Shown: piece after piece, positions 30,249 to 59,432 of the stretch
Layout of the letters: each line of letters begins with the position of its first letter
Position numbering within the stretch: the first letter of the stretch is position 1
Assembly (NCBI GenBank): GCA_964645205.1
Contig: CAZYBO010000005.1
Location: 69,789 to 133,788 of the forward strand
DNA length: 64,000 bases
Direction of reading: 5' to 3'
Origin: an uncultured Rickettsiales bacterium
GTDB lineage: Bacteria > Pseudomonadota > Alphaproteobacteria > Rickettsiales > SXRF01
Position numbers and translations under genes: made by a program
Notes under the pieces: model-generated
Databases searched by the model: none
What the model was told of the DNA's origin: nothing
What the model saw: only the letters and a program-made list of their open reading frames with translations

Positions 30249-33200
30249 GTGCATTATTCGTGGGATGAGGAATGGAACCGCCGTGCCGCAGCACTCGCCG
30301 CGCACGGTCTCTATGATCCCGCGAACGAACACGACGCGTGCGGCGTAGGCTTCGTCGCCGCTATCGACGGCAAACCACGCCGCAGCATCGTCGAAGCCGC
30401 TATCGAAGCGCTGAAAGCCGTCTACCATCGCGGCGCAGTTGATGCCGACGGCAAGACTGGCGACGGCGCGGGCATCCATATCCAGATTCCGTTCGCATTT
30501 TTCCGCGAGCATATCGAACGTTCGGGGCGTGCGCTTGCCAGCGATAAACTGGCCGTAGGCATGATGTTCCTACCCAAGAAAAATCTCGGCGCGCAGGAAA
30601 CCTGCCGCGGCATCGTCGAAAGCGAAATCCTCTCATTCGGCTACCGAATATATGGTTGGCGGCAGGTTCCGGTGAAGGCCGAGCTGATCGGCGAAATCGC
30701 CAACGACTCGCGCCCGGAAATCGAACAGATCCTCATCGCAGGCAAAGAAGGCGCGGACGAAGAGCAATTCGAGCGCGACCTCTACATTATTCGCAAGCGT
30801 ATCGAAAAAGCCGTTCGCGCCCGCGCCATCAATGATTTTTACGTCAGCTCGCTATCGTGCCGCTCCGTTATTTACAAGGGATTGTTCAAAGCCGAGCAGC
30901 TCACCGCCTTTTATCCCGACCTGCTCGACGAGCGCTTTGTCTCCGCCTTCGCTATTTTCCACCAGCGCTTCTCCACCAACACCGCCCCCGCATGGCACCT
31001 CGCGCAGCCCTTCCGCATGATCGCGCATAACGGCGAAATCAACACGCTGAAGGGCAACATCAATTTCATGCGCAGCCACGAATCCACCTTCCGCTGCGCC
31101 GCGTTTGACGGCTTCGAGCAGGACATCACCCCCGTCATTCCCGACAACACATCGGACACCGGCGCGCTCGACTCCGTGGTGGAAATCCTCACCCGCGCAG
31201 GCCGCCCGCTGCCGCTGACCAAACTGATTTTAATCCCGCCCGCATGGAGCGGCGTAGCCGACATGCCGCAGGCGCACAAGGACATGTTCAGCTGCTTAAA
31301 CAGTATCTCCGAACAATGGGACGGCCCCGCCGCCATCGCTGCCACCGACGGCAAGTGGGTGATCGCAGGCATGGATCGCAACGGCCTGCGACCCATGCGC
31401 TACAGCGTCACCACCGACGGGATCGTGATTATTTGCTCCGAAAGCGGAATGGTCGAGCTTGCCGATTCGCAGATCATCGAGCGTGGTCGCTTAGGCCCCG
31501 GTGAAATTCTCGGCATCGACCTCGAAGCAGGCAGGCTCTATAAAGACCGCGAGTTAAAAGACCACCTCGCCGCACAGCACCCGTATGGGGAGTGGGTGGG
31601 GAATATTGTGCGGCTTAGTGATTTAGCGGTCAGCGTTCAGCGATCAGTGGCCGGTAAGGAAGAAAATATCCTGCTTACTGACCGCCGAACGCTGACCGCT
31701 GACCGCTTACACACGCTCCACCTCGCCACCGGTCTTACGCACGAAGACCTCGAAATCATCCTCCACCCCATGGCCGCCGACGGTAAGGAAGCCGTAGGCT
31801 CGATGGGAGACGACACGCCGATGGCGGTGCTGGCCGATGCGCATCGCGGCTTCCACCATTTCTTCCGCCAGAATTTCTCGCAAGTGACTAATCCGCCGAT
31901 CGACAGCTTGCGCGAGCGCCGCGTGATGAGTTTGTTCACCCGTTTCGGCAATGACGGTAATTATCTGGCGCTCGATAATTCGCACAGCAAGATCCTGCTC
32001 GCCGAAACGCCCGTGCTGCTTGCGCGCGAAATGACCGCCATTCGCAACCACTTCCACGACCGCATCACTGAAATCGACACGCTGTTCGCGCTCGACGGCA
32101 CGCTGCGCGAAGGCATAGAAGCCCTCATCCGCAAAGCCGAGGAATCCATCAAGAACGGCCGCAACTATCTGCTGCTCACCGACCTGCGCATGGATGAAAC
32201 CCACGCCGCCATCCCGATAATCCTTGCGGTTTCCGCGCTGCACAGCCACCTCGTTAAAAACAAATTGCGCAAGCGCGTGTCCATTTTAGTCTCCACGTCT
32301 GAATGCATTGAGGTGCATTGCTGCGCCGTGTTGATCGGTGTAGGCGCTACCGTCGTGCATCCATACCTTGCTGAAGAAACGCTCCGTCAGCGTCATGCAC
32401 AGGGGCTGTTCGCAGGCAAAGGGCTGCCCGATATGCTGGCGAATTACCGCGATGCGATGAGCAACGGCCTGCTCAAAGTCATGTCGAAAATGGGTATCGG
32501 CGTCATCAGCGCCTATCGTGGCGGCCTGAATTTCGAGGCGATCGGCCTTTCGCGCGCGCTCGCCGCCGAATTTTTCCCCGGCCTGCCCTCGCGCATTTCC
32601 GGCATCGGGCTGGACGGTATCGAGCGCCGCGTGCGCGAATTGCATGAAAGAGCGTTCAGTAACGTCGAGCAGCTTCCCATCGGCGGCTTTTACCGCTACC
32701 GCGCGAATGCAGAAAACCACGCGTGGGAAGGCAAGCAGATTCACATGCTGCAAACCGCGGTAACTACTGGTTCTTATCAGACCTTCAAGCAATACACGCA
32801 GTCTATCTACAGCCAGCAGCCGCTGCACCTGCGCGACCTGCTCGATTTCCGCCGTACGCAGCCTGCCGTCGCCATCGATGAGGTGGAATCCATCACCGAA
32901 ATCCGCAAACGCTTCATCGCGCCCGCCATGTCGCTGGGCGCACTCTCGCCGGAAGCGCACGAAACGCTGGCGATTGCTATGAATCGCATGGGCGCGGCAT
33001 CGAACTCCGGCGAAGGCGGCGAAGGCGCGGAGCGCTACAAGCCGTTGCCCAACGGCGACAACGCGAACTCCACCGTGAAGCAGGTAGCCTCGGCGCGTTT
33101 CGGCGTTACGGCGGAATATTTAAACAGCGCACAGGAATTGCAGATCAAGGTCGCCCAAGGCGCAAAACCCGGTGAAGGCGGCCAGCTTCCCGGCTTCAAA

Positions 33201-34799: not shown

Positions 34800-35467
34800 C
34801 TCGCCAGCTTTACCACACGCACCTCTCCCCCTTCTGCCGCAAAATTCGCATGATGCTGAAGGAAAAAGACCTGCCGTTTGAACTCGTGCAGGAAAACCCG
34901 TGGGATCGTAATCTGGAATTTTTCGCGCTCAACCCGGCTGGCGAAGTGCCGGTGCTGGTGGAAGATAACGGCACGGTAGTGTCCGGCGCCTACGCTATCG
35001 GCGAATATCTGGAAGAAACCTACCCACAGATCACCCTGCTGGGAAAAACCGCTCCCGAACGCGCCGAAGTGCGCCGCCTGATCGACTGGTTCGACCATAA
35101 GTTTGATTATGAAGTCACGCAGAACGTGCTGTTTGAAAAAGTGTTCAAGCATTATTTCCAGTGCGGCGAGCCGAATTCCGGCGCCATCCGCACGGGAAAA
35201 ACCAACATGCTCTACCATCTCGATTACATCGGCTACTTAGCAAACGAGCGCTATTTCCTCGCGGGCGACGCGCTCACGCTGGCCGATCTTGCGGCCGCCG
35301 CGCATTTATCCGCGCTCGATTATTTAGGCGATGTGCAGTGGGAATATAACCCCTGCGCGCGCAACTGGTACGCGCTGATGAAATCGCGCCCGTCGATGCG
35401 CAGCATCCTTACCGAACGCGTGCGCGGCGTGCGCCCGCCGGTTTATTATGAAAACCCGGATTTCTGA
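34796..35467 (+). CDS. Glutathione S-transferase family protein
   Basis: LYHTHLSPFCRKIR, NPAGEVPVL, LTLADLAAAAHLSALDY. Confidence 0.92.
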   Translation: MTRQLYHTHLSPFCRKIRMMLKEKDLPFELVQENPWDRNLEFFALNPAGEVPVLVEDNGTVVSGAYAIGEYLEETYPQITLLGKTAPERAEVRRLIDWFDHKFDYEVTQNVLFEKVFKHYFQCGEPNSGAIRTGKTNMLYHLDYIGYLANERYFLAGDALTLADLAAAAHLSALDYLGDVQWEYNPCARNWYALMKSRPSMRSILTERVRGVRPPVYYENPDF

Positions 35468-36545
35468 GGGAATCACCTCACAGGCTCGCGCGCTCGGCTT
35501 CGACACCGTAGGCTTCGCACGCCCCCAGCTCGCCGCGCGCTATGCCGCCGGGCTTGGGGAGTTTCTCGCACTCGGGCATCACGGCGACATGCAGTGGATG
35601 GAAGAAAAAGCCGACCGCCGCAGCGATCCGCTGACGCTATGGCCGGAGGCGAAAAGCGTCATCGTGCTCGGTCACAATTACGCACCCGAAACGAATCCGA
35701 TGGAAAAACTCGCGCAGAAAAACATCGGCAATATTTCCTGCTACGCGCTGAACGAAGATTATCATGAGGTGATCAAGAAAAAACTGAAAGCGCTCGCGCG
35801 TTGGTTGGTGGCAACGTACGGCGGCGACGTCAAAGTATTCGTAGACACCGCGCCCGTAATGGAAAAGCCGTTGGCGGAAGCTGCGGGATTGGGTTGGGTG
35901 GGAAAGCACACTTGCTTAGTCAGCCGCGAATTCGGTTCGTGGCTGTTTATCGGCAGCGTGTTTACGACGCTGGATTACAATGTCATCCTGAGCGAAGCGA
36001 AGGATCTTGCCGGAGCAAAGAAAGATTCTTCACCTGCGGTTCAGAATGACATTGCGCACTGCGGCACCTGTACCAAATGTATCGACATTTGCCCCACACA
36101 GGCCTTCACCGCCGAACGCAAGCTGGATGCGCGGCGCTGCATTTCCTATCTTACCATCGAACATAAAGGGCAGATTCCGCTGGAATTCCGCAAAGCCATC
36201 GGCAACCGCATCTACGGGTGCGACGATTGCCTCGCCGTCTGCCCGTGGAATAAATTCGCGCAAGTTGCAAACGAGTCCGCTTATCATCCACGCAAAGAAC
36301 TGGAGGCGCCGTTGCTACGCGAACTCGTGCTGCTCGACGATACCGCCTTCCGCGACTATTTTCGTAAATCCCCAGTTAAACGCATCGGACGCGACCGCTT
36401 CGTACGCAATGTGCTTATCGCCATCGGCAACAGCGGTGATCGTTCGCTAGCCGGAATTATTTCCCCGCTGCAAAATGACGCGTCATCGCTCGTCGCGGAC
36501 ATGGCGACATGGGCAGTTGAAGAATTACAACGAACCGTGCTATAA
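35448..36545 (+). CDS. queG: Epoxyqueuosine reductase
   Basis: YHEVIKKKL, VDTAPVMEK, CGTCTKCIDICPT, RCISYLTIE, YGCDDCLAVCPWN. Confidence 0.96.
   Translation: MKTRISEGITSQARALGFDTVGFARPQLAARYAAGLGEFLALGHHGDMQWMEEKADRRSDPLTLWPEAKSVIVLGHNYAPETNPMEKLAQKNIGNISCYALNEDYHEVIKKKLKALARWLVATYGGDVKVFVDTAPVMEKPLAEAAGLGWVGKHTCLVSREFGSWLFIGSVFTTLDYNVILSEAKDLAGAKKDSSPAVQNDIAHCGTCTKCIDICPTQAFTAERKLDARRCISYLTIEHKGQIPLEFRKAIGNRIYGCDDCLAVCPWNKFAQVANESAYHPRKELEAPLLRELVLLDDTAFRDYFRKSPVKRIGRDRFVRNVLIAIGNSGDRSLAGIISPLQNDASSLVADMATWAVEELQRTVL
35981..36051. repeat. Gene-less YGTC hairpin dimer (type B), in frame inside queG
   Basis: TGTCATCCTGAGCGAAGCGAAGGATCT...AGATTCTTCACCTGCGGTTCAGAATGACA. The left arm is 1 nt from the arms flanking the GIY-YIG gene at 58313. 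Confidence 0.92.
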
Positions 36546-42279: not shown

Positions 42280-42355
42280 TGTCATCCTGAACGAAGTGAA
42301 GGATCTTTCTTCCTGCGTACGGCGTTTAGACCCTTCGCGTGCGCTCAGGATGACA
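42280..42355. repeat. Gene-less YGTC hairpin dimer (type B), intergenic upstream of pdhC
   Basis: TGTCATCCTGAACGAAGTGAAGGATCT...AGACCCTTCGCGTGCGCTCAGGATGACA. Confidence 0.9.
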
Positions 42356-44656: not shown

Positions 44657-45027
44657 TGTCATTCCTGCGAAAGCAGGAATCTTAATCTTGCCCTAAACCC
44701 AATCCTGTATTTCGTCGTACAAATCTTTCCATTCCGGATTCAGCTTTTCAATCAACTCTACTTTCCACTCCCGCTTCCAGCGCTTCAGGCATTTTTCGCG
44801 CTGAATAGCGCGGTCTACATAGTCGAAAACTTCAACATACACTAATTTTTTAATATGGTATTTCTTGCTATGCCCCTCTATCAATCCGTCCTTATGTTCC
44901 CTGACTCTTCTTACCAGATCCTTCGTCACTCCAATGTACAGTACGCCATATCTTTTGCTTGCCAGCACATACACATAGTATCTATGCGTTTTGCTCATTC
45001 AAGATCCCTGCTTTCGCAGGGATGACA
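44657..45027. mobile_element. GIY-YIG cassette A bracketed by inverted TGTC hairpins
   Basis: Arms at 44657-44682 (TGTCATTCCTGCGAAAGCAGGAATCT) and 45002-45027 (AGATCCCTGCTTTCGCAGGGATGACA). Mobility is inferred. Confidence 0.8.
44693..44998 (-). CDS. Short GIY-YIG nuclease (COG2827/YhbQ-like)
   Basis: YYVY..LYIGVT.DLVRR..EHK..AIQREK..KRW..LNPEW.DLY. Confidence 0.92.
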   Translation of the reverse strand: MSKTHRYYVYVLASKRYGVLYIGVTKDLVRRVREHKDGLIEGHSKKYHIKKLVYVEVFDYVDRAIQREKCLKRWKREWKVELIEKLNPEWKDLYDEIQDWV

Positions 45028-49064: not shown

Positions 49065-49083
49065 AATAACCTGCTTTAACCTT

Positions 49084-49155
49084 TGTCATTCCTGCGAAAG
49101 CAGGAATCTTGGGTTTAGCCGAAAAGCATAGATTCCTGCTTTCGCAGGAATGACA
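49084..49155. repeat. Gene-less YGTC hairpin dimer (type A)
   Basis: TGTCATTCCTGCGAAAGCAGGAATCT-N20-AGATTCCTGCTTTCGCAGGAATGACA is a perfect 26-bp inverted repeat, identical to the left arm of cassette A. Confidence 0.95.
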
Positions 49156-49165
49156 ACATATGAAG

Positions 49166-50002: not shown

Positions 50003-50377
50003 CGTCATCCTGCGGGTTGCGAAGCAACAGCGCAGGATCTCTCCCCGGTGAGCCCGGAATAGAGATCAGCCCACGCAGGATTTTTTGTTTCGATAATAGA
50101 TAGTTTCTTTTCACGATGAATATTCTTCAACTTTTTCTCCGCTTCAATAGCAGCCACAATCGTTTCGTGACATTCGAACCAAACCAGCCGCGTGAGATTA
50201 TACCGTTTCGTGAAACCGGCAACCATCTTTTCTTTATGTTGCCATACACGTTTTACCAGATCGGATGTCACGCCAATGTAAATCGTCCCACGATAGCCAT
50301 TAGACATCATGTAAACATACCCGCCAACCATCGCTTCGGATCCTGTGCTCTTGCCTGCGGCAAGCCACAGGATGACG
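50003..50377. mobile_element. GIY-YIG cassette C bracketed by inverted CGTC hairpins
   Basis: Arms at 50003-50040 (CGTCATCCTGCGGGTTGCGAAGCAACAGCGCAGGATCT) and 50338-50377 (reverse complement CGTCATCCTGTGGCTTGCCGCAGGCAAGAGCACAGGATCC). Confidence 0.8.
50005..50331 (-). CDS. Short GIY-YIG nuclease (COG2827/YhbQ-like)
   Basis: GYVY..IYIGVT.DLVKRV.QHK..AIEAEK..KNPAW.DLY. The stop codon lies inside the hairpin arm. Confidence 0.92.
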
Positions 50378-57259: not shown

Positions 57260-58288
57260 ATGACCACCCCCATGCACGATATTCTCACCCTGCTCGCCGA
57301 ACGCAAGAACCTGACGCAGGACGCGGCCGTGCGCGCGTTCCAGATCATCATGAACGGCGGCGCGACGCCAGCGCAGATGGCGGCATTTATGATGGGCTTG
57401 CGCATGAAGGGCGAAACGGCGGAGGAAATTACCGGCGGGGCGATCGCCCTGCGTGCGAAAGCGCCGCATGTGAAGGTGCCTGCAGGTGCGATCGACACAT
57501 GCGGCACGGGCGGCGACGCCAAGGGCACGTACAATATTTCCACCGCCGTGGCGTTCGTGCTGGCGGCCTGCGGCGTACCGGTGGCCAAGCACGGCAACCG
57601 CTCGGTATCCTCGCAATCCGGCTCCGCCGACGTGTTGGCGATGCTCGGCGTGAATATCAATGCGGAAATCCCGGTGCTGCTGCGCTGCCTCGAGCAGTGC
57701 AATATCTGCTTCCTGATGGCGCCGCGCTTCCACACCGCCATGCGCCATGTCGCCCCGCTACGGCAGGAGCTTGGGCTGCGCACCGTATTCAACTTGCTTG
57801 GCCCCCTCTCCAACCCTGCCACGCCCGACTTTCAGTTACTCGGTGTTTATTCGGAAAACTGGCTGGAGCCGATGGCACATGCGCTGAAGTCGCTCGGCGT
57901 CAAAGCCGCTTGGGTCGTGCATGGCAGCGACGGGCTGGACGAACTTACGCTGTCGGGCACCTCGCAAGTCGCCGAACTGAAAGACGGCAACGTGCGCCGT
58001 TTCGACATCACCCCTGAAGATGCCGGCCTCGCGCGCGCGTCCATCGACGAGCTCAGGGGACAATCCCCCGAATACAACGCCAACGCCCTGCAACACGCGC
58101 TCTCCGGCGCCGACAGCGCCTACCGCCGCGCCGTACTGCTCAACGCGAGCGCCGGTTTGATCGTCGCGGGCAAAGCCGCCGACCTCAAAGCAGGCGTAGC
58201 ACTCGCCGCCGCCGCCATCGATTCGGGTGATGCGTATAAGGTTCTCAAAAAGCTGGTCGATGTGAGCAATACTAAAGTGTCATCCTGA
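57260..58288 (+). CDS. trpD: Anthranilate phosphoribosyltransferase
   Basis: DTCGTGGD, NISTA, KHGNRSVSSQSGSAD, HGSDGLDE. The stop codon lies inside a hairpin arm. Confidence 0.97.
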   Translation: MTTPMHDILTLLAERKNLTQDAAVRAFQIIMNGGATPAQMAAFMMGLRMKGETAEEITGGAIALRAKAPHVKVPAGAIDTCGTGGDAKGTYNISTAVAFVLAACGVPVAKHGNRSVSSQSGSADVLAMLGVNINAEIPVLLRCLEQCNICFLMAPRFHTAMRHVAPLRQELGLRTVFNLLGPLSNPATPDFQLLGVYSENWLEPMAHALKSLGVKAAWVVHGSDGLDELTLSGTSQVAELKDGNVRRFDITPEDAGLARASIDELRGQSPEYNANALQHALSGADSAYRRAVLLNASAGLIVAGKAADLKAGVALAAAAIDSGDAYKVLKKLVDVSNTKVSS

Positions 58289-58631
58289 GCGTAGCGAAGG
58301 ATCTGGCCGTTTATGCTAATCTACTACGTTTATATACTCACGAGCCCCAATAACAGGGTTATGTATATTGGCGTTACGAACAACCTTGAACGCCGTGTAT
58401 GGGAGCATAAATCTAAAGCCGTATCTGGATTTACCCAAAAATATAATGTGACAAAATTGGTATATTTTGAAGAATGCTCCGATATTATGTCGGCGATTGC
58501 TCGCGAAAAACAGATTAAAGGCTGGCTACGAAAAAAGAAAGATGCGCTGGTAGAAGTCACCAACCCGGAATGGAAAGATATAAGCGTGGAATGGTACGCA
58601 AGTGAGATCCTTCGCTGCGCTCAGGATGACA
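58278..58631. mobile_element. GIY-YIG cassette B bracketed by inverted TGTC hairpins
   Basis: Arms at 58278-58304 (TGTCATCCTGAGCGTAGCGAAGGATCT) and 58605-58631 (AGATCCTTCGCTGCGCTCAGGATGACA), 26/27 inverted match. Confidence 0.82.
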
Positions 58632-58636
58632 AGTAA
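58313..58636 (+). CDS. Short GIY-YIG nuclease (COG2827/YhbQ-like)
   Basis: YYVY..MYIGVTNNLERR.WEHK..AIAREK.IKGW..TNPEWKD. The C-terminal EILRCAQDDK is encoded by the right arm. Confidence 0.92.
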   Translation: MLIYYVYILTSPNNRVMYIGVTNNLERRVWEHKSKAVSGFTQKYNVTKLVYFEECSDIMSAIAREKQIKGWLRKKKDALVEVTNPEWKDISVEWYASEILRCAQDDK

Positions 58637-58637
58637 C

Positions 58638-59432
58638 ATGACAGACACCCTCGCCGCCATCTGTGCCGCCAAGCGTGAGCACATCGCCAAGCGCAAGGCC
58701 GCCGCACCGGAAGGCCGCATACTGGAGGAGGCGCAGCGCGCCTTGCCCGCACGCGGATTCAGACGGGCGTTGCAGGAAAAGCAAAACAACAAAAAATTCG
58801 GTCTCATCGCGGAAATCAAAAAGGCCTCACCGAGCAAGGGCATCATCCGCGCGGATTTCGACCCCGCGGCACTGGCGAAGGCATATGAAGAAGGCGGCGC
58901 GGCGTGCCTTTCCGTGCTCACCGACGAGCCGTATTTTCAGGGTAGCGATGCGTATCTCGCGCAGGCGCGAAACGCCGTGGGCCTGCCGGTGCTGCGCAAG
59001 GATTTTATGCTCGATCCGTACCAGATCATTGAATCGCGCGCGCTTGGAGCGGATTGTATCCTGCTCATCATGGCCGCCCTGTCCGACGCGCAGGCGAAAG
59101 AACTGGACGAAGCCGCCACAAAACTTGGTATGGACACGCTGGTCGAAGTACACGACGAATATGAGATGGAACGCGCGGTTATGCACCTGCGCCCTGCCCT
59201 GCTTGGCATCAATAACCGCAACCTGAAAACGCTGAAGGTAGACATCGAAACCTCGCGGCGGTTGGCAGCACGGCTCCCAAAGGACGTAACCGGCGTGTGC
59301 GAAAGCGGTATTGAAACGCACCGCGATCTGCTGTATCTCCGGGAAAGCGGTTTTACCTGTTTCCTCGTCGGCGAATCGCTGATGCGGCAGGCGGATGTGA
59401 CGAAAGCGACTCGAACCCTGTTGGGAGGATAG
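58638..59432 (+). CDS. trpC: Indole-3-glycerol-phosphate synthase
   Basis: IAEIKKASPSKG, SVLTD, LRKDF, GINNRNL, ESGI. Confidence 0.97.
   Translation: MTDTLAAICAAKREHIAKRKAAAPEGRILEEAQRALPARGFRRALQEKQNNKKFGLIAEIKKASPSKGIIRADFDPAALAKAYEEGGAACLSVLTDEPYFQGSDAYLAQARNAVGLPVLRKDFMLDPYQIIESRALGADCILLIMAALSDAQAKELDEAATKLGMDTLVEVHDEYEMERAVMHLRPALLGINNRNLKTLKVDIETSRRLAARLPKDVTGVCESGIETHRDLLYLRESGFTCFLVGESLMRQADVTKATRTLLGG

What the first reader, a model, noticed from the sequence alone, without database searches (positions are those of the whole stretch)
58278..58631. Cassette B: GA-mismatch mini-hairpin family with two dispersed empty dimers
Seen: arms fold as ATCCT-GA-GC-GNA-GC-GA-AGGAT. Loop variants are GTA, GCA and GAA, and the 42280 copy has a compensatory AC-GAA-GT. 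The tandem GA/GA positions could form sheared pairs. The loop N varies freely while G and A are fixed. Empty dimers sit 16 and 22 kb away, with decayed right arms. Inference: an older, dispersed sub-family served in trans by this gene.
Basis: partly seen in the sequence, partly recalled or inferred. Interest (0 to 1): 0.68.

Follow-up and report, generated by a model that had tools for sequence, protein, structure and literature searches.

The report
Ssn nuclease with GA-mismatch hairpin repeats
A small DNA-cutting enzyme gene sits between two inverted copies of a short DNA hairpin that also occurs about 60 more times in the genome; the pairing belongs to the Ssn nuclease system published in 2025, but this hairpin has non-Watson-Crick G·A positions that the published search motif misses.

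Summary
Window 58278-58631 is a 107-aa GIY-YIG nuclease gene between trpD and trpC. It is bracketed by inverted 27-nt arms, TGTC-ATCCT-GA-GC-GNA-GC-GA-AGGAT-CT. The gene-less dimers at 35981-36051 and 42280-42355 are real, but their right arms are not decayed. They are intact variants with compensated stems (ATTCT-GA-ACC-GCA-GGT-GA-AGAAT and ATCCT-GA-GCG-CA-CGC-GA-AGGGT).

The genome holds 66 such arms: 28 empty dimers, the cassette and 8 unpaired arms. GA/GA is present in 53 of 56 forward arms chosen on tag and stem alone. The loop is GNA in 34 of 42 seven-nt cores. The pair next to the loop is always C-G, and the next pair alternates G-C and A-T. Nucleases 54-70% identical to this one, from more than 15 phyla, carry the same GA-bracketed arms, and all 7 pairs covary.

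This is the Ssn nuclease / hairpin-repeat system (Chenal et al. 2025). The arm class fails the published SRM search pattern (0 of 66). Its core is the known "mini-hairpin DNA" GCGNAGC. Service in trans is plausible. "Older" is not supported, because divergence equals that of the other families. I class it as a new variant of a known kind, of moderate interest.

The parts
58278..58304 (+). Left arm of cassette B: TGTC tag, ATCCT/AGGAT stem, GA/GA, GC-GTA-GC core, CT tail. Its T-GA (58286-58288) is the stop codon of trpD.
58313..58636 (+). Nuclease B, a 107-aa single-domain GIY-YIG protein of the Ssn type. Y7, Y18, R28, H32, E65 and N84 are conserved. The last ~10 codons lie inside the right arm.
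58605..58631 (-). Right arm of cassette B, read on the - strand: TGTCATCCTGAGCGCAGCGAAGGATCT (loop GCA).
35981..36007 (+). Left arm of the gene-less dimer inside the queG-like ORF (loop GAA).
36023..36051 (-). Right arm of that dimer: TGTC-ATTCT-GA-ACC-GCA-GGT-GA-AGAAT-CT. It is a compensated variant, not a decayed copy. A twin copy lies on another contig.
42280..42306 (+). Left arm of the intergenic gene-less dimer: GA-AC-GAA-GT-GA, the A-T version of the inner pair.
42328..42355 (-). Right arm of that dimer: TGTC-ATCCT-GA-GCGCACGC-GA-AGGGT-CT, with an 8-nt core and one G-T wobble in the outer stem.

Best explanation
Cassette B is an Ssn-type system. It is a small single-domain GIY-YIG nuclease gene flanked by two inverted copies of its probable recognition hairpin. 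The roughly 60 gene-less copies of that hairpin, mostly 55-78-bp inverted dimers, are non-autonomous members of the same family.

By homology with characterised Ssn enzymes, nuclease B should bind the arm only when the DNA is single-stranded. It should bind only the strand that reads 5'-TGTC-ATCCT-GA-...-GA-AGGAT-C, and nick a few bases 5' of the TGTC tag.

The hairpin of this class is not fully Watson-Crick. A 5-bp outer stem carries two opposed GA dinucleotides in a Y-GA-R context, which suits tandem sheared G·A pairs. These clamp an exchangeable inner mini-hairpin. The mini-hairpin is usually (G/A)C-GNA-G(C/T), the known extra-stable d(GCGNAGC) motif. Some arms carry GNNA tetraloops, 3-bp inner stems or a second nested GA module instead.

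Shown here: the anatomy, the copy numbers, the covariation, the invariance of the tag, of GA/GA and of the 3' C, and the link between arm class and nuclease similarity. Inferred: ssDNA cleavage, the cut position, sheared pairing, action in trans on the dimers, and how copies spread.
For: Protein:
- Pfam GIY-YIG, E = 4e-19, 107 aa, one domain.
- Y7, Y18 and E65 are conserved in 97-100% of 112 homologs. They sit one residue away from the Y6, Y17 and E64 whose mutation abolished SsnA cleavage (PMC11893778).
- A 52%-identical relative is flanked by perfect canonical NTS arms, TGTCATTCCCGCGAAAGCGGGAATCCAG.

Repeats:
- The genome has 66 arms, in 29 inverted pairs with the tags facing outward.
- The strict pattern occurs 52 times, and the control pattern (the same motif read backwards) occurs 0 times.
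- The positions critical for SsnA are kept here. The GTC before the stem is needed for cleavage and the C after the stem for binding. Here the tag is TGTC or CGTC in 64 of 66 arms, and the 3' base is C in 58 of 66.

Structure:
- On 53 distinct arms from other genomes, chosen without any pairing requirement, 88.7% of cells are paired, against 24-52% when the partner column is slid.
- All 7 pairs change on both sides. None of 500 shuffles reaches the observed score.
- In this genome the loop-closing pair is C-G in 42 of 42 arms. The next pair is G-C in 23, A-T in 17 and A·C in 2.
- GA/GA occurs in 53 of 56 forward arms selected on tag and outer stem only.
- The context is Y-GA-R on both sides in every arm that has GA.

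Chemistry:
- Of all 64 GCNNNGC triloops, only GNA forms the mini-hairpin. Tm is 70-76 C, with a sheared G-A pair (PMC13037366).

Class link:
- 73 of 80 B-like genes have GA-bracketed arms, against 2 of 15 distant genes.

Other:
- The genome has no Y1/RAYT transposase.
Against: - There is no biochemical test. Cleavage, strand choice and sheared pairing are all inferred.
- The nearest-neighbour DNA fold is weak (-2.7 kcal/mol, z = -0.4) and equal on both strands.
- Eight of 42 loops are not GNA (ATA, AAA, AAC, GCG), and such loops also flank intact genes in other phyla. The mini-hairpin is therefore not strictly required.
- The arms fail the published SRM pattern.
- Arm class and protein clade are not strictly tied. 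The L024 nuclease groups with A and C but has B-type arms.
- Relatives G031 and G017 carry 44 and 13 such arms without a detectable nuclease.
- No two dimers are identical (maximum 0.94), and no target-site duplication is seen. Nothing shows current mobility.
Confidence: 0.72

Rival explanations
1. The dispersed dimers are dead relics. Nuclease B is a resident, possibly domesticated, gene that no longer acts on them, and the arms persist by slow neutral decay or by host-level use.
For: No two dimers are identical (nearest neighbour 0.88, maximum 0.94). Spacers have diverged much more than arms. Relatives G031 and G017 keep many arms without a nuclease. B-like genes sit at trp operon junctions in several genera of the same family, so the gene can be long-lived at one place.
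Against: The arms are far better kept than the spacers. The tag, GA/GA and the 3' C are near-invariant, and stem changes are compensated. That argues for continued selection or homogenisation on the hairpin, not neutral decay.
Confidence: 0.15
2. The arms work mainly as RNA elements, REP-like mRNA stabilisers or attenuators at operon junctions. Their link with the nuclease gene is incidental.
For: Many copies lie at junctions between co-directional genes: trpD|trpC, and 42280-42355 between two minus-strand ORFs. CGTC-tagged REPs were proposed to act as RNA hairpins (PMC3733652).
Against: Each dimer presents both orientations. The fold energy is weak and there is no T-run. Rfam finds nothing. 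One dimer is translated inside queG. The arm class tracks nuclease similarity across phyla. GNA with a C-G closing pair is a DNA-specific stability rule.
Confidence: 0.06
3. The arms are mobilised or maintained by another enzyme, a RAYT/IS200-type or other transposase, and not by the GIY-YIG protein.
For: The architecture of a gene between inverted hairpins plus dispersed dimers copies REPtron/REPIN logic (PMC3733652; PMC11893778 discussion).
Against: The genome (99% complete) has no Y1_Tnp match, although the control genomes score. The tag is TGTC, not GTAG. The only gene flanked by these arms here and in 73 other genomes is the GIY-YIG gene.
Confidence: 0.05

Closest known systems
Ssn nucleases with NTS / Ssn-related motifs (SsnA of Neisseria meningitidis; Chenal et al., Nat Commun 2025, PMC11893778)
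   Same: The protein is a ~100-aa single-domain GIY-YIG enzyme with the same catalytic Tyr/Tyr/Glu positions. The gene sits between inverted hairpin repeats. The repeats carry a 5' (C/T)GTC tag and a 3' C. The genome holds tens of gene-less copies, mostly as inverted pairs. The central loop base is free, in line with the finding that loop identity is not needed for cleavage.
   Different: The NTS stem is 8-9 uninterrupted base pairs with a 4-nt loop. This arm has 5 bp, then GA/GA, then a 2-3-bp mini-hairpin with a GNA triloop. The published SRM pattern matches 0 of 66 arms. No biochemistry exists for this class. The tail is CT, not CYRG.
CGTC-tagged REP families 1-4 (Di Nocera et al., BMC Genomics 2013, PMC3733652)
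   Same: Both have the terminal CGTC/TGTC tag, AT as the first two stem bases, mainly inverted dimers with variable spacers, occasional in-frame copies inside genes, and a presence in Micavibrio-like alphaproteobacteria.
   Different: Those families have 8-9-bp stems, 4-5-nt loops and a CCA tail, and were reported to lack a dedicated enzyme. No GA-mismatch class was described.
Mini-hairpin DNA d(GCGNAGC) / d(GCGNNAGC) (Hirao and co-workers; review PMC13037366)
   Same: 26 of 66 arm cores are exactly GCGNAGC (19) or GCGNNAGC (7). The loop-closing C-G pair is invariant. G and A at the loop ends are kept and N is free.
   Different: The mini-hairpin was known from phage replication origins, promoters and synthetic uses. 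It was not known as the core of a genome-wide repeat family tied to a nuclease. Here it is embedded between GA/GA and an outer stem.
REP / RAYT (REPIN) systems of the IS200/IS605 type
   Same: A gene sits between inverted hairpins, with dispersed non-autonomous inverted dimers, recognition of single-stranded DNA hairpins, and no target-site duplication.
   Different: The enzyme is a GIY-YIG nuclease, not a Y1 (HUH) transposase. The genome has no Y1 gene. The tag is TGTC, not GTAG.

Membership tests
Ssn nuclease / SRM system | Single-domain GIY-YIG protein of about 94-110 aa | tested here: met
   107 aa. Pfam PF01541 covers residues 4-75, E = 3.9e-19, with no other domain.
Ssn nuclease / SRM system | Catalytic residues equivalent to SsnA Y6, Y17 and E64 | tested here: met
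   Y7, Y18 and E65 are present in B and conserved in 97-100% of 112 aligned homologs. The mutant data are in PMC11893778.
Ssn nuclease / SRM system | Assignment to CDD family cd10448 | not testable with these tools
   No CDD library was available. As a proxy, a homolog 52% identical to B is flanked by canonical NTS arms. NCBIfam gave no specific model.
Ssn nuclease / SRM system | Gene flanked on both sides by inverted hairpin repeats with a 5' (C/T)GTC tag | tested here: met
   Arms at 58278-58304 and 58605-58631 with TGTC tags facing outward.
Ssn nuclease / SRM system | Repeats match the published SRM search pattern HGTCWYN(0-2)YYVSBRHN(0-5)WNVSBRGN(0-2)RNCYNB | tested here: not met
   0 of 66 B arms match. 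The arms of cassettes A and C do not match either. The pattern does hit 51 other sites in this genome (pattern). The pattern is a search device, not the family definition.
Ssn nuclease / SRM system | Many gene-less copies of the same repeat in the genome | tested here: met
   66 arms: 28 empty dimers, 8 unpaired arms and the cassette pair.
Ssn nuclease / SRM system | Strand-specific cleavage of single-stranded DNA a few bases 5' of the tag, with no activity on duplex DNA or RNA | not testable with these tools
   This needs purified protein and oligonucleotides.
CGTC-tagged REPs (families 1-4) | Uninterrupted 8-9-bp stem, 4-5-nt loop and CCA tail | tested here: not met
   The arm has a 5-bp stem, GA/GA, a 2-3-bp inner stem, a 3-4-nt loop and a CT tail. 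The definition is in PMC3733652.
CGTC-tagged REPs (families 1-4) | Terminal CGTC/TGTC tag and mainly inverted dimers | tested here: met
   The tag is TGTC in 62 arms and CGTC in 2, out of 66. There are 29 inverted pairs.
Mini-hairpin DNA | Sequence GCGNAGC or GCGNNAGC with a C-G pair closing a G...A loop | tested here: met
   19 arms have GCGNAGC and 7 have GCGNNAGC. The C-G closing pair is present in 42 of 42 seven-nt cores. A further 14 are the ACGNAGT variant, whose stability is unknown.
Mini-hairpin DNA | Unusual thermal stability, with sheared G-A pairing | not testable with these tools
   Standard nearest-neighbour folding gives only -2.7 kcal/mol. UV melting or NMR is needed.
REP/RAYT (REPIN) | Associated Y1 (HUH) tyrosine transposase | tested here: not met
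   PF01797 has 0 matches in the whole genome, while the control genomes are positive.
Classical MITE (derived from a DDE transposon) | Target-site duplication flanking the terminal inverted repeats | tested here: not met
   No direct repeat is seen in the 8-nt flanks of the 29 pairs. The flanks are merely A/T-rich, with T at -1 in 34 of 66 arms.

The most novel reading that the evidence does not exclude
B-like Ssn nucleases may recognise a non-Watson-Crick DNA platform. Two tandem sheared G·A pairs would be held between a short stem and an exchangeable, extra-stable mini-hairpin. The stem and the inner module covary or change length (7 to about 39 nt) across more than 15 phyla, while GA/GA, the GTC tag and the 3' C stay fixed. 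The enzyme would then read structure plus a few fixed bases. That would define a separate, easily re-targetable specificity class of single-strand nucleases that current SRM searches overlook.
Probability: 0.35. Interest if true: 0.6.

Novelty: new variant of a known kind. Interest (0 to 1): 0.45.

Why it matters
Ssn enzymes are the only known site-specific nucleases that cut single-stranded DNA alone, and they are wanted as tools. Their catalogue of enzyme-target pairs is still small.

This locus, with about 70 related ones, defines a widespread target class that the published motif search misses. Its design gives direct, cheap predictions for binding and cleavage assays. That design is an invariant GA/GA, a GNA or GNNA mini-hairpin core, and a covarying outer stem.

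It also shows that the mini-hairpin d(GCGNAGC), known mostly from phage origins and synthetic work, is used on a genomic scale by a selfish or semi-domesticated repeat family.

For genome annotation, it explains the recurrent translated tails such as VILSEAKDL, both inside real genes and in spurious ORFs.

Tried and rejected
- Nearest-neighbour DNA folding as evidence for the hairpin. The energy is no better than shuffles and is the same on both strands, so it was rejected as a test.
- Rfam scan of the window. It found only a tRNA.
- NCBIfam gave no specific family. The PDB sequence search found only the distant UPF0213 protein 1ZG2.
- Literature search for the arm sequence itself returned nothing relevant.
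- RAYT/Y1 transposase as the driver. It is absent from the genome.
- Target-site duplications. None were found.
- "Older family". The divergence of B dimers equals that of families A and D.
- Phylogeny to decide whether the trpD|trpC cassette is ancestral or recurrent. The tree of ~95-aa proteins is unresolved, and the AU test does not reject a single clade (p = 0.145).
- My first architecture classifier had a greedy-match bug. I replaced it.
- A fuzzy search with indels timed out.

Full report
**What is at the coordinates**

Window 58278-58631 holds a 107-aa ORF (58313-58636, + strand) with a GIY-YIG catalytic domain (Pfam E = 3.9e-19). It lies between trpD (57260-58288) and trpC (58638-59432).

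It is bracketed by two 27-nt arms in inverted orientation. These are TGTCATCCTGAGCGTAGCGAAGGATCT at 58278-58304 and the reverse complement of TGTCATCCTGAGCGCAGCGAAGGATCT at 58605-58631.

The stop codon of trpD (58286-58288) is the T-GA inside the left arm. The last ten or so codons of the nuclease lie in the right arm.

The pattern ATCCTGAGCGNAGCGAAGGAT occurs four times in the window and never in 100 shuffles. The other two hits begin gene-less inverted dimers at 35981-36051 and 42280-42355. The first sits in frame inside a 365-aa queG-like ORF. The second lies between two minus-strand ORFs.

**The fold**

The energy is only -2.7 kcal/mol (z = -0.4). The complementary strand scores -2.5. Nearest-neighbour energy is therefore no evidence for the fold.

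The published chemistry is relevant here:
- d(GCGNAGC) and d(GCGNNAGC) are the "mini-hairpin DNA" of Hirao and co-workers.
- Of all 64 GCNNNGC triloops, only GNA forms the mini-hairpin (PMC13037366).

Standard folding models do not include these effects. The review itself says they are unexplained by conventional thermodynamics.

**Genome-wide census**

The genome is 2.17 Mb in 14 contigs, and the window is C5:69789-133788. I curated 66 arms of this type. They form 29 inverted pairs (28 gene-less dimers of 55-78 bp plus cassette B) and 8 unpaired arms.

A strict pattern search gives 52 hits against 0 for the control pattern, the same motif read backwards.

Features of the 66 arms:
- The tag is TGTC in 62 and CGTC in 2.
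- The base after the stem is C in 58.
- The outer stem is ATCCT/AGGAT in 52 and ATTCT/AGAAT (compensated) in 6.

The GA/GA count was made without selection bias. Of 59 sequences picked on tag and outer stem alone, 53 have GA/GA, 2 have GA/AA and 1 has AA/GA. The other 3 are the TC/TC reverse reading of single hairpins. The context is Y-GA-R on both sides in every arm that has GA. From my own knowledge, that context favours tandem sheared G·A pairs in DNA.

The inner module is 7 nt in 42 arms, 8 nt in 14, 9 nt in 7 and 15-16 nt in 3. The longest ones contain a second, nested GA-GC-GAA-GC-GA unit.

In the 7-nt class:
- The loop-closing pair is C-G in all 42.
- The next pair is G-C in 23, A-T in 17 and A·C in 2.
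- The loops are GTA 12, GAA 12, GCA 9, GGA 1, AAA 3, ATA 2, GCG 2 and AAC 1.

Loop positions 1 and 3 are therefore constrained (0.59 and 0.44 bits), and position 2 is nearly free (1.69 bits, with G avoided). The constraint is still not absolute. About one loop in five is not GNA.

**Correction to the observation**

The "decayed right arms" are not decayed. The arm at 36023-36051 reads TGTC-ATTCT-GA-ACC-GCA-GGT-GA-AGAAT-CT. It has a compensated outer stem and a 3-bp inner stem with a GCA loop. The same arm type occurs in a second dimer on contig 1. The arm at 42328-42355 reads TGTC-ATCCT-GA-GCGCACGC-GA-AGGGT-CT.

Most dimers are heterodimers. One arm has an AC..GT core, and the other has a GC..GC core or a longer one. 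Spacers fall into two recognisable groups, roughly actgcggcaaagaa and aagcgccacacgcaggaagga. Dimers were therefore copied as units.

**Relatives**

Only three GIY-YIG genes of this kind exist in the genome, all in the window: A (44693-44998), C (about 50008-50331) and B. Each has its own arm type.

In 41 genomes of the same family and order, 27 have homologs, and 16 have the B-type arm pattern, from 1 to 98 copies. The control count is 0 everywhere.

A scan of one genome per species found more than 528 relatives. The best 80 are 54-70% identical to B. By their record titles they come from more than 15 phyla, including Chloroflexota, Patescibacteria, Ignavibacteriota, Omnitrophota, Nitrospinota, Planctomycetota, Legionella and Micavibrio.

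I searched the flanks of each gene only for a GTC tag followed by a terminal 4-bp pairing.
- Of the arms next to genes at least 54% identical, 118 of 135 are GA-bracketed.
- That covers 73 of the 80 such genes with any arm found.
- For more distant genes the figures are 3 of 25 arms and 2 of 15 genes (Fisher p = 2e-9).
- Distant genes carry fully paired NTS-like arms, for example TGTCATTCCCGCGAAAGCGGGAATCCAG.

I also collected 53 distinct arms by spacing alone (NGTC-N5-GA-N7-GA-N5, with no pairing required). On these, 88.7% of cells pair, against 24-52% for slid partners. All seven pairs change on both sides, and no shuffle reaches the observed score. Outer stems include ATTCT/AGAAT, ACCCT/AGGGT, ATGCT/AGCAT, ATACT/AGTAT, ATATT/AATAT, ATTTC/GAAAT and ATCCC/GGGAT.

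There is an exception to the class link. One nuclease that groups with A and C has B-type arms (L024).

**What is known**

Chenal et al. (Nat Commun 2025, PMC11893778) described the Ssn family:
- These are about 94-aa single-domain GIY-YIG proteins (CDD cd10448).
- Their genes are typically flanked by hairpin repeats (NTS, or more generally SRM) that also occur in many gene-less copies.
- SsnA binds the hairpin only as single-stranded DNA and only on the strand carrying the CGTC side. It cuts a few bases upstream.
- The three bases before the palindrome matter most for cutting, and the C after it matters most for binding.
- Loop identity is dispensable.
- Homologs have their own specificities.
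- In Neisseria the enzyme restricts incoming transforming DNA.
- The authors note the IS-like look of NTS-ssnA-NTS.

I read it and tested its features here.

Nuclease B has Y7, Y18 and E65, matching the mutated Y6, Y17 and E64 of SsnA. The arms keep the tag and the 3' C. However, the published SRM search pattern matches none of the 66 B arms and none of the arms of cassettes A and C. It does hit 51 other sites in this genome.

Di Nocera et al. 2013 (PMC3733652) catalogued CGTC/TGTC-tagged REPs with 8-9-bp stems and 4-5-nt loops. They noted their presence in Micavibrio and the lack of a dedicated enzyme. They described no GA-mismatch class.

**Mechanism proposed**

Nuclease B probably binds the forward strand of the arm when it is single-stranded, for example during replication, repair, transformation or conjugation. 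It would then nick 5' of TGTC.

Only the forward strand carries purine mismatches (GA/GA) and a G...A loop. The complement carries TC/TC and a T...C loop. The two strands should therefore differ greatly in hairpin stability. This fits one-strand recognition, but it is an inference.

The inner module behaves as an exchangeable stabiliser, and GA/GA behaves as a fixed feature.

How copies spread is unknown:
- There is no target-site duplication.
- There is no Y1 transposase.
- Dimers share spacers, so they were copied as units.
- No identical copies exist, so there is no sign of recent activity.
- B dimers are no more diverged than families A or D, so "older" is not supported.

**Verdict**

The feature is real. 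The system is a member of the Ssn/SRM kind, with a structurally distinct and widespread hairpin class that the published motif does not capture. I class it as a new variant of a known kind, of moderate interest.

Noticed in passing
Relative genomes G031 and G017 (genome search handles): G031 (same order, 100% complete) has 44 B-type arms but no Ssn homolog at E <= 1e-5. G017 has 13 arms and no gene. The arms can outlive, or exist without, the nuclease.
   Followed up: partly
window 57260-59432; loci L003, L006, L114, L116, L120, L128: Junctions of the trp operon are repeatedly occupied by B-like nuclease cassettes in this bacterial family. The trpD|trpC junction is occupied in G000, G001 and G008, and the gene lies next to trpC in G003 and G010. 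The trpG|trpD junction is occupied in G018, G019 and G013. Other genera have the bare ATGA-overlap junction. The tree and AU test (p = 0.145) cannot tell ancestral from recurrent insertion.
   Followed up: partly
L114 (G001), about 1140-1500: The cassette at trpD|trpC in G001 keeps its GA-bracketed hairpins but has lost the GTC tag on both sides (CAAC...AAAA in place of TGTC...GACA). By the SsnA mutational data this should stop cleavage at its own arms.
   Followed up: no
own genome C1:31600-31628, C1:270619-270647, C3:233541-233567: Single hairpins carry a tag on both sides (TGTC-hairpin-GACA). This is exactly what a deletion between the AGGAT repeats of the two arms of a dimer would leave. 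They may be excision or deletion footprints.
   Followed up: no
whole genome; e.g. window 49083-49159 and contig C3: Other tagged hairpin families are abundant: GTCATTCCTGCGAAAGCAGGAAT (30 arms), GTCATTCCCGC.. (10) and GTCATCCCGGCGCAGGCCGGGAT (32). The last two match the published SRM pattern but flank no nuclease gene in this genome.
   Followed up: partly
window 35448-36545: A B-type dimer is translated in frame inside the queG-like ORF as VILSEAKDLAGAKKDSSPAVQND, just before the CxxCxxC iron-sulfur motif.
   Followed up: partly
L024 (G032): A nuclease only 48% identical to B groups with nucleases A and C (SH-aLRT 97) and is nevertheless flanked by B-type arms (ATTCT-GA-ACGTAGT-GA-AGAAT and ATATT-GA-GCGAAGC-GA-AATAT). 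Arm class and protein clade can be uncoupled.
   Followed up: no
window 31618-31714: A different 46-nt inverted repeat built of GNTCAGC-like heptamers (76% complementary) lies inside a long ORF. It is unrelated to the tagged hairpins.
   Followed up: no
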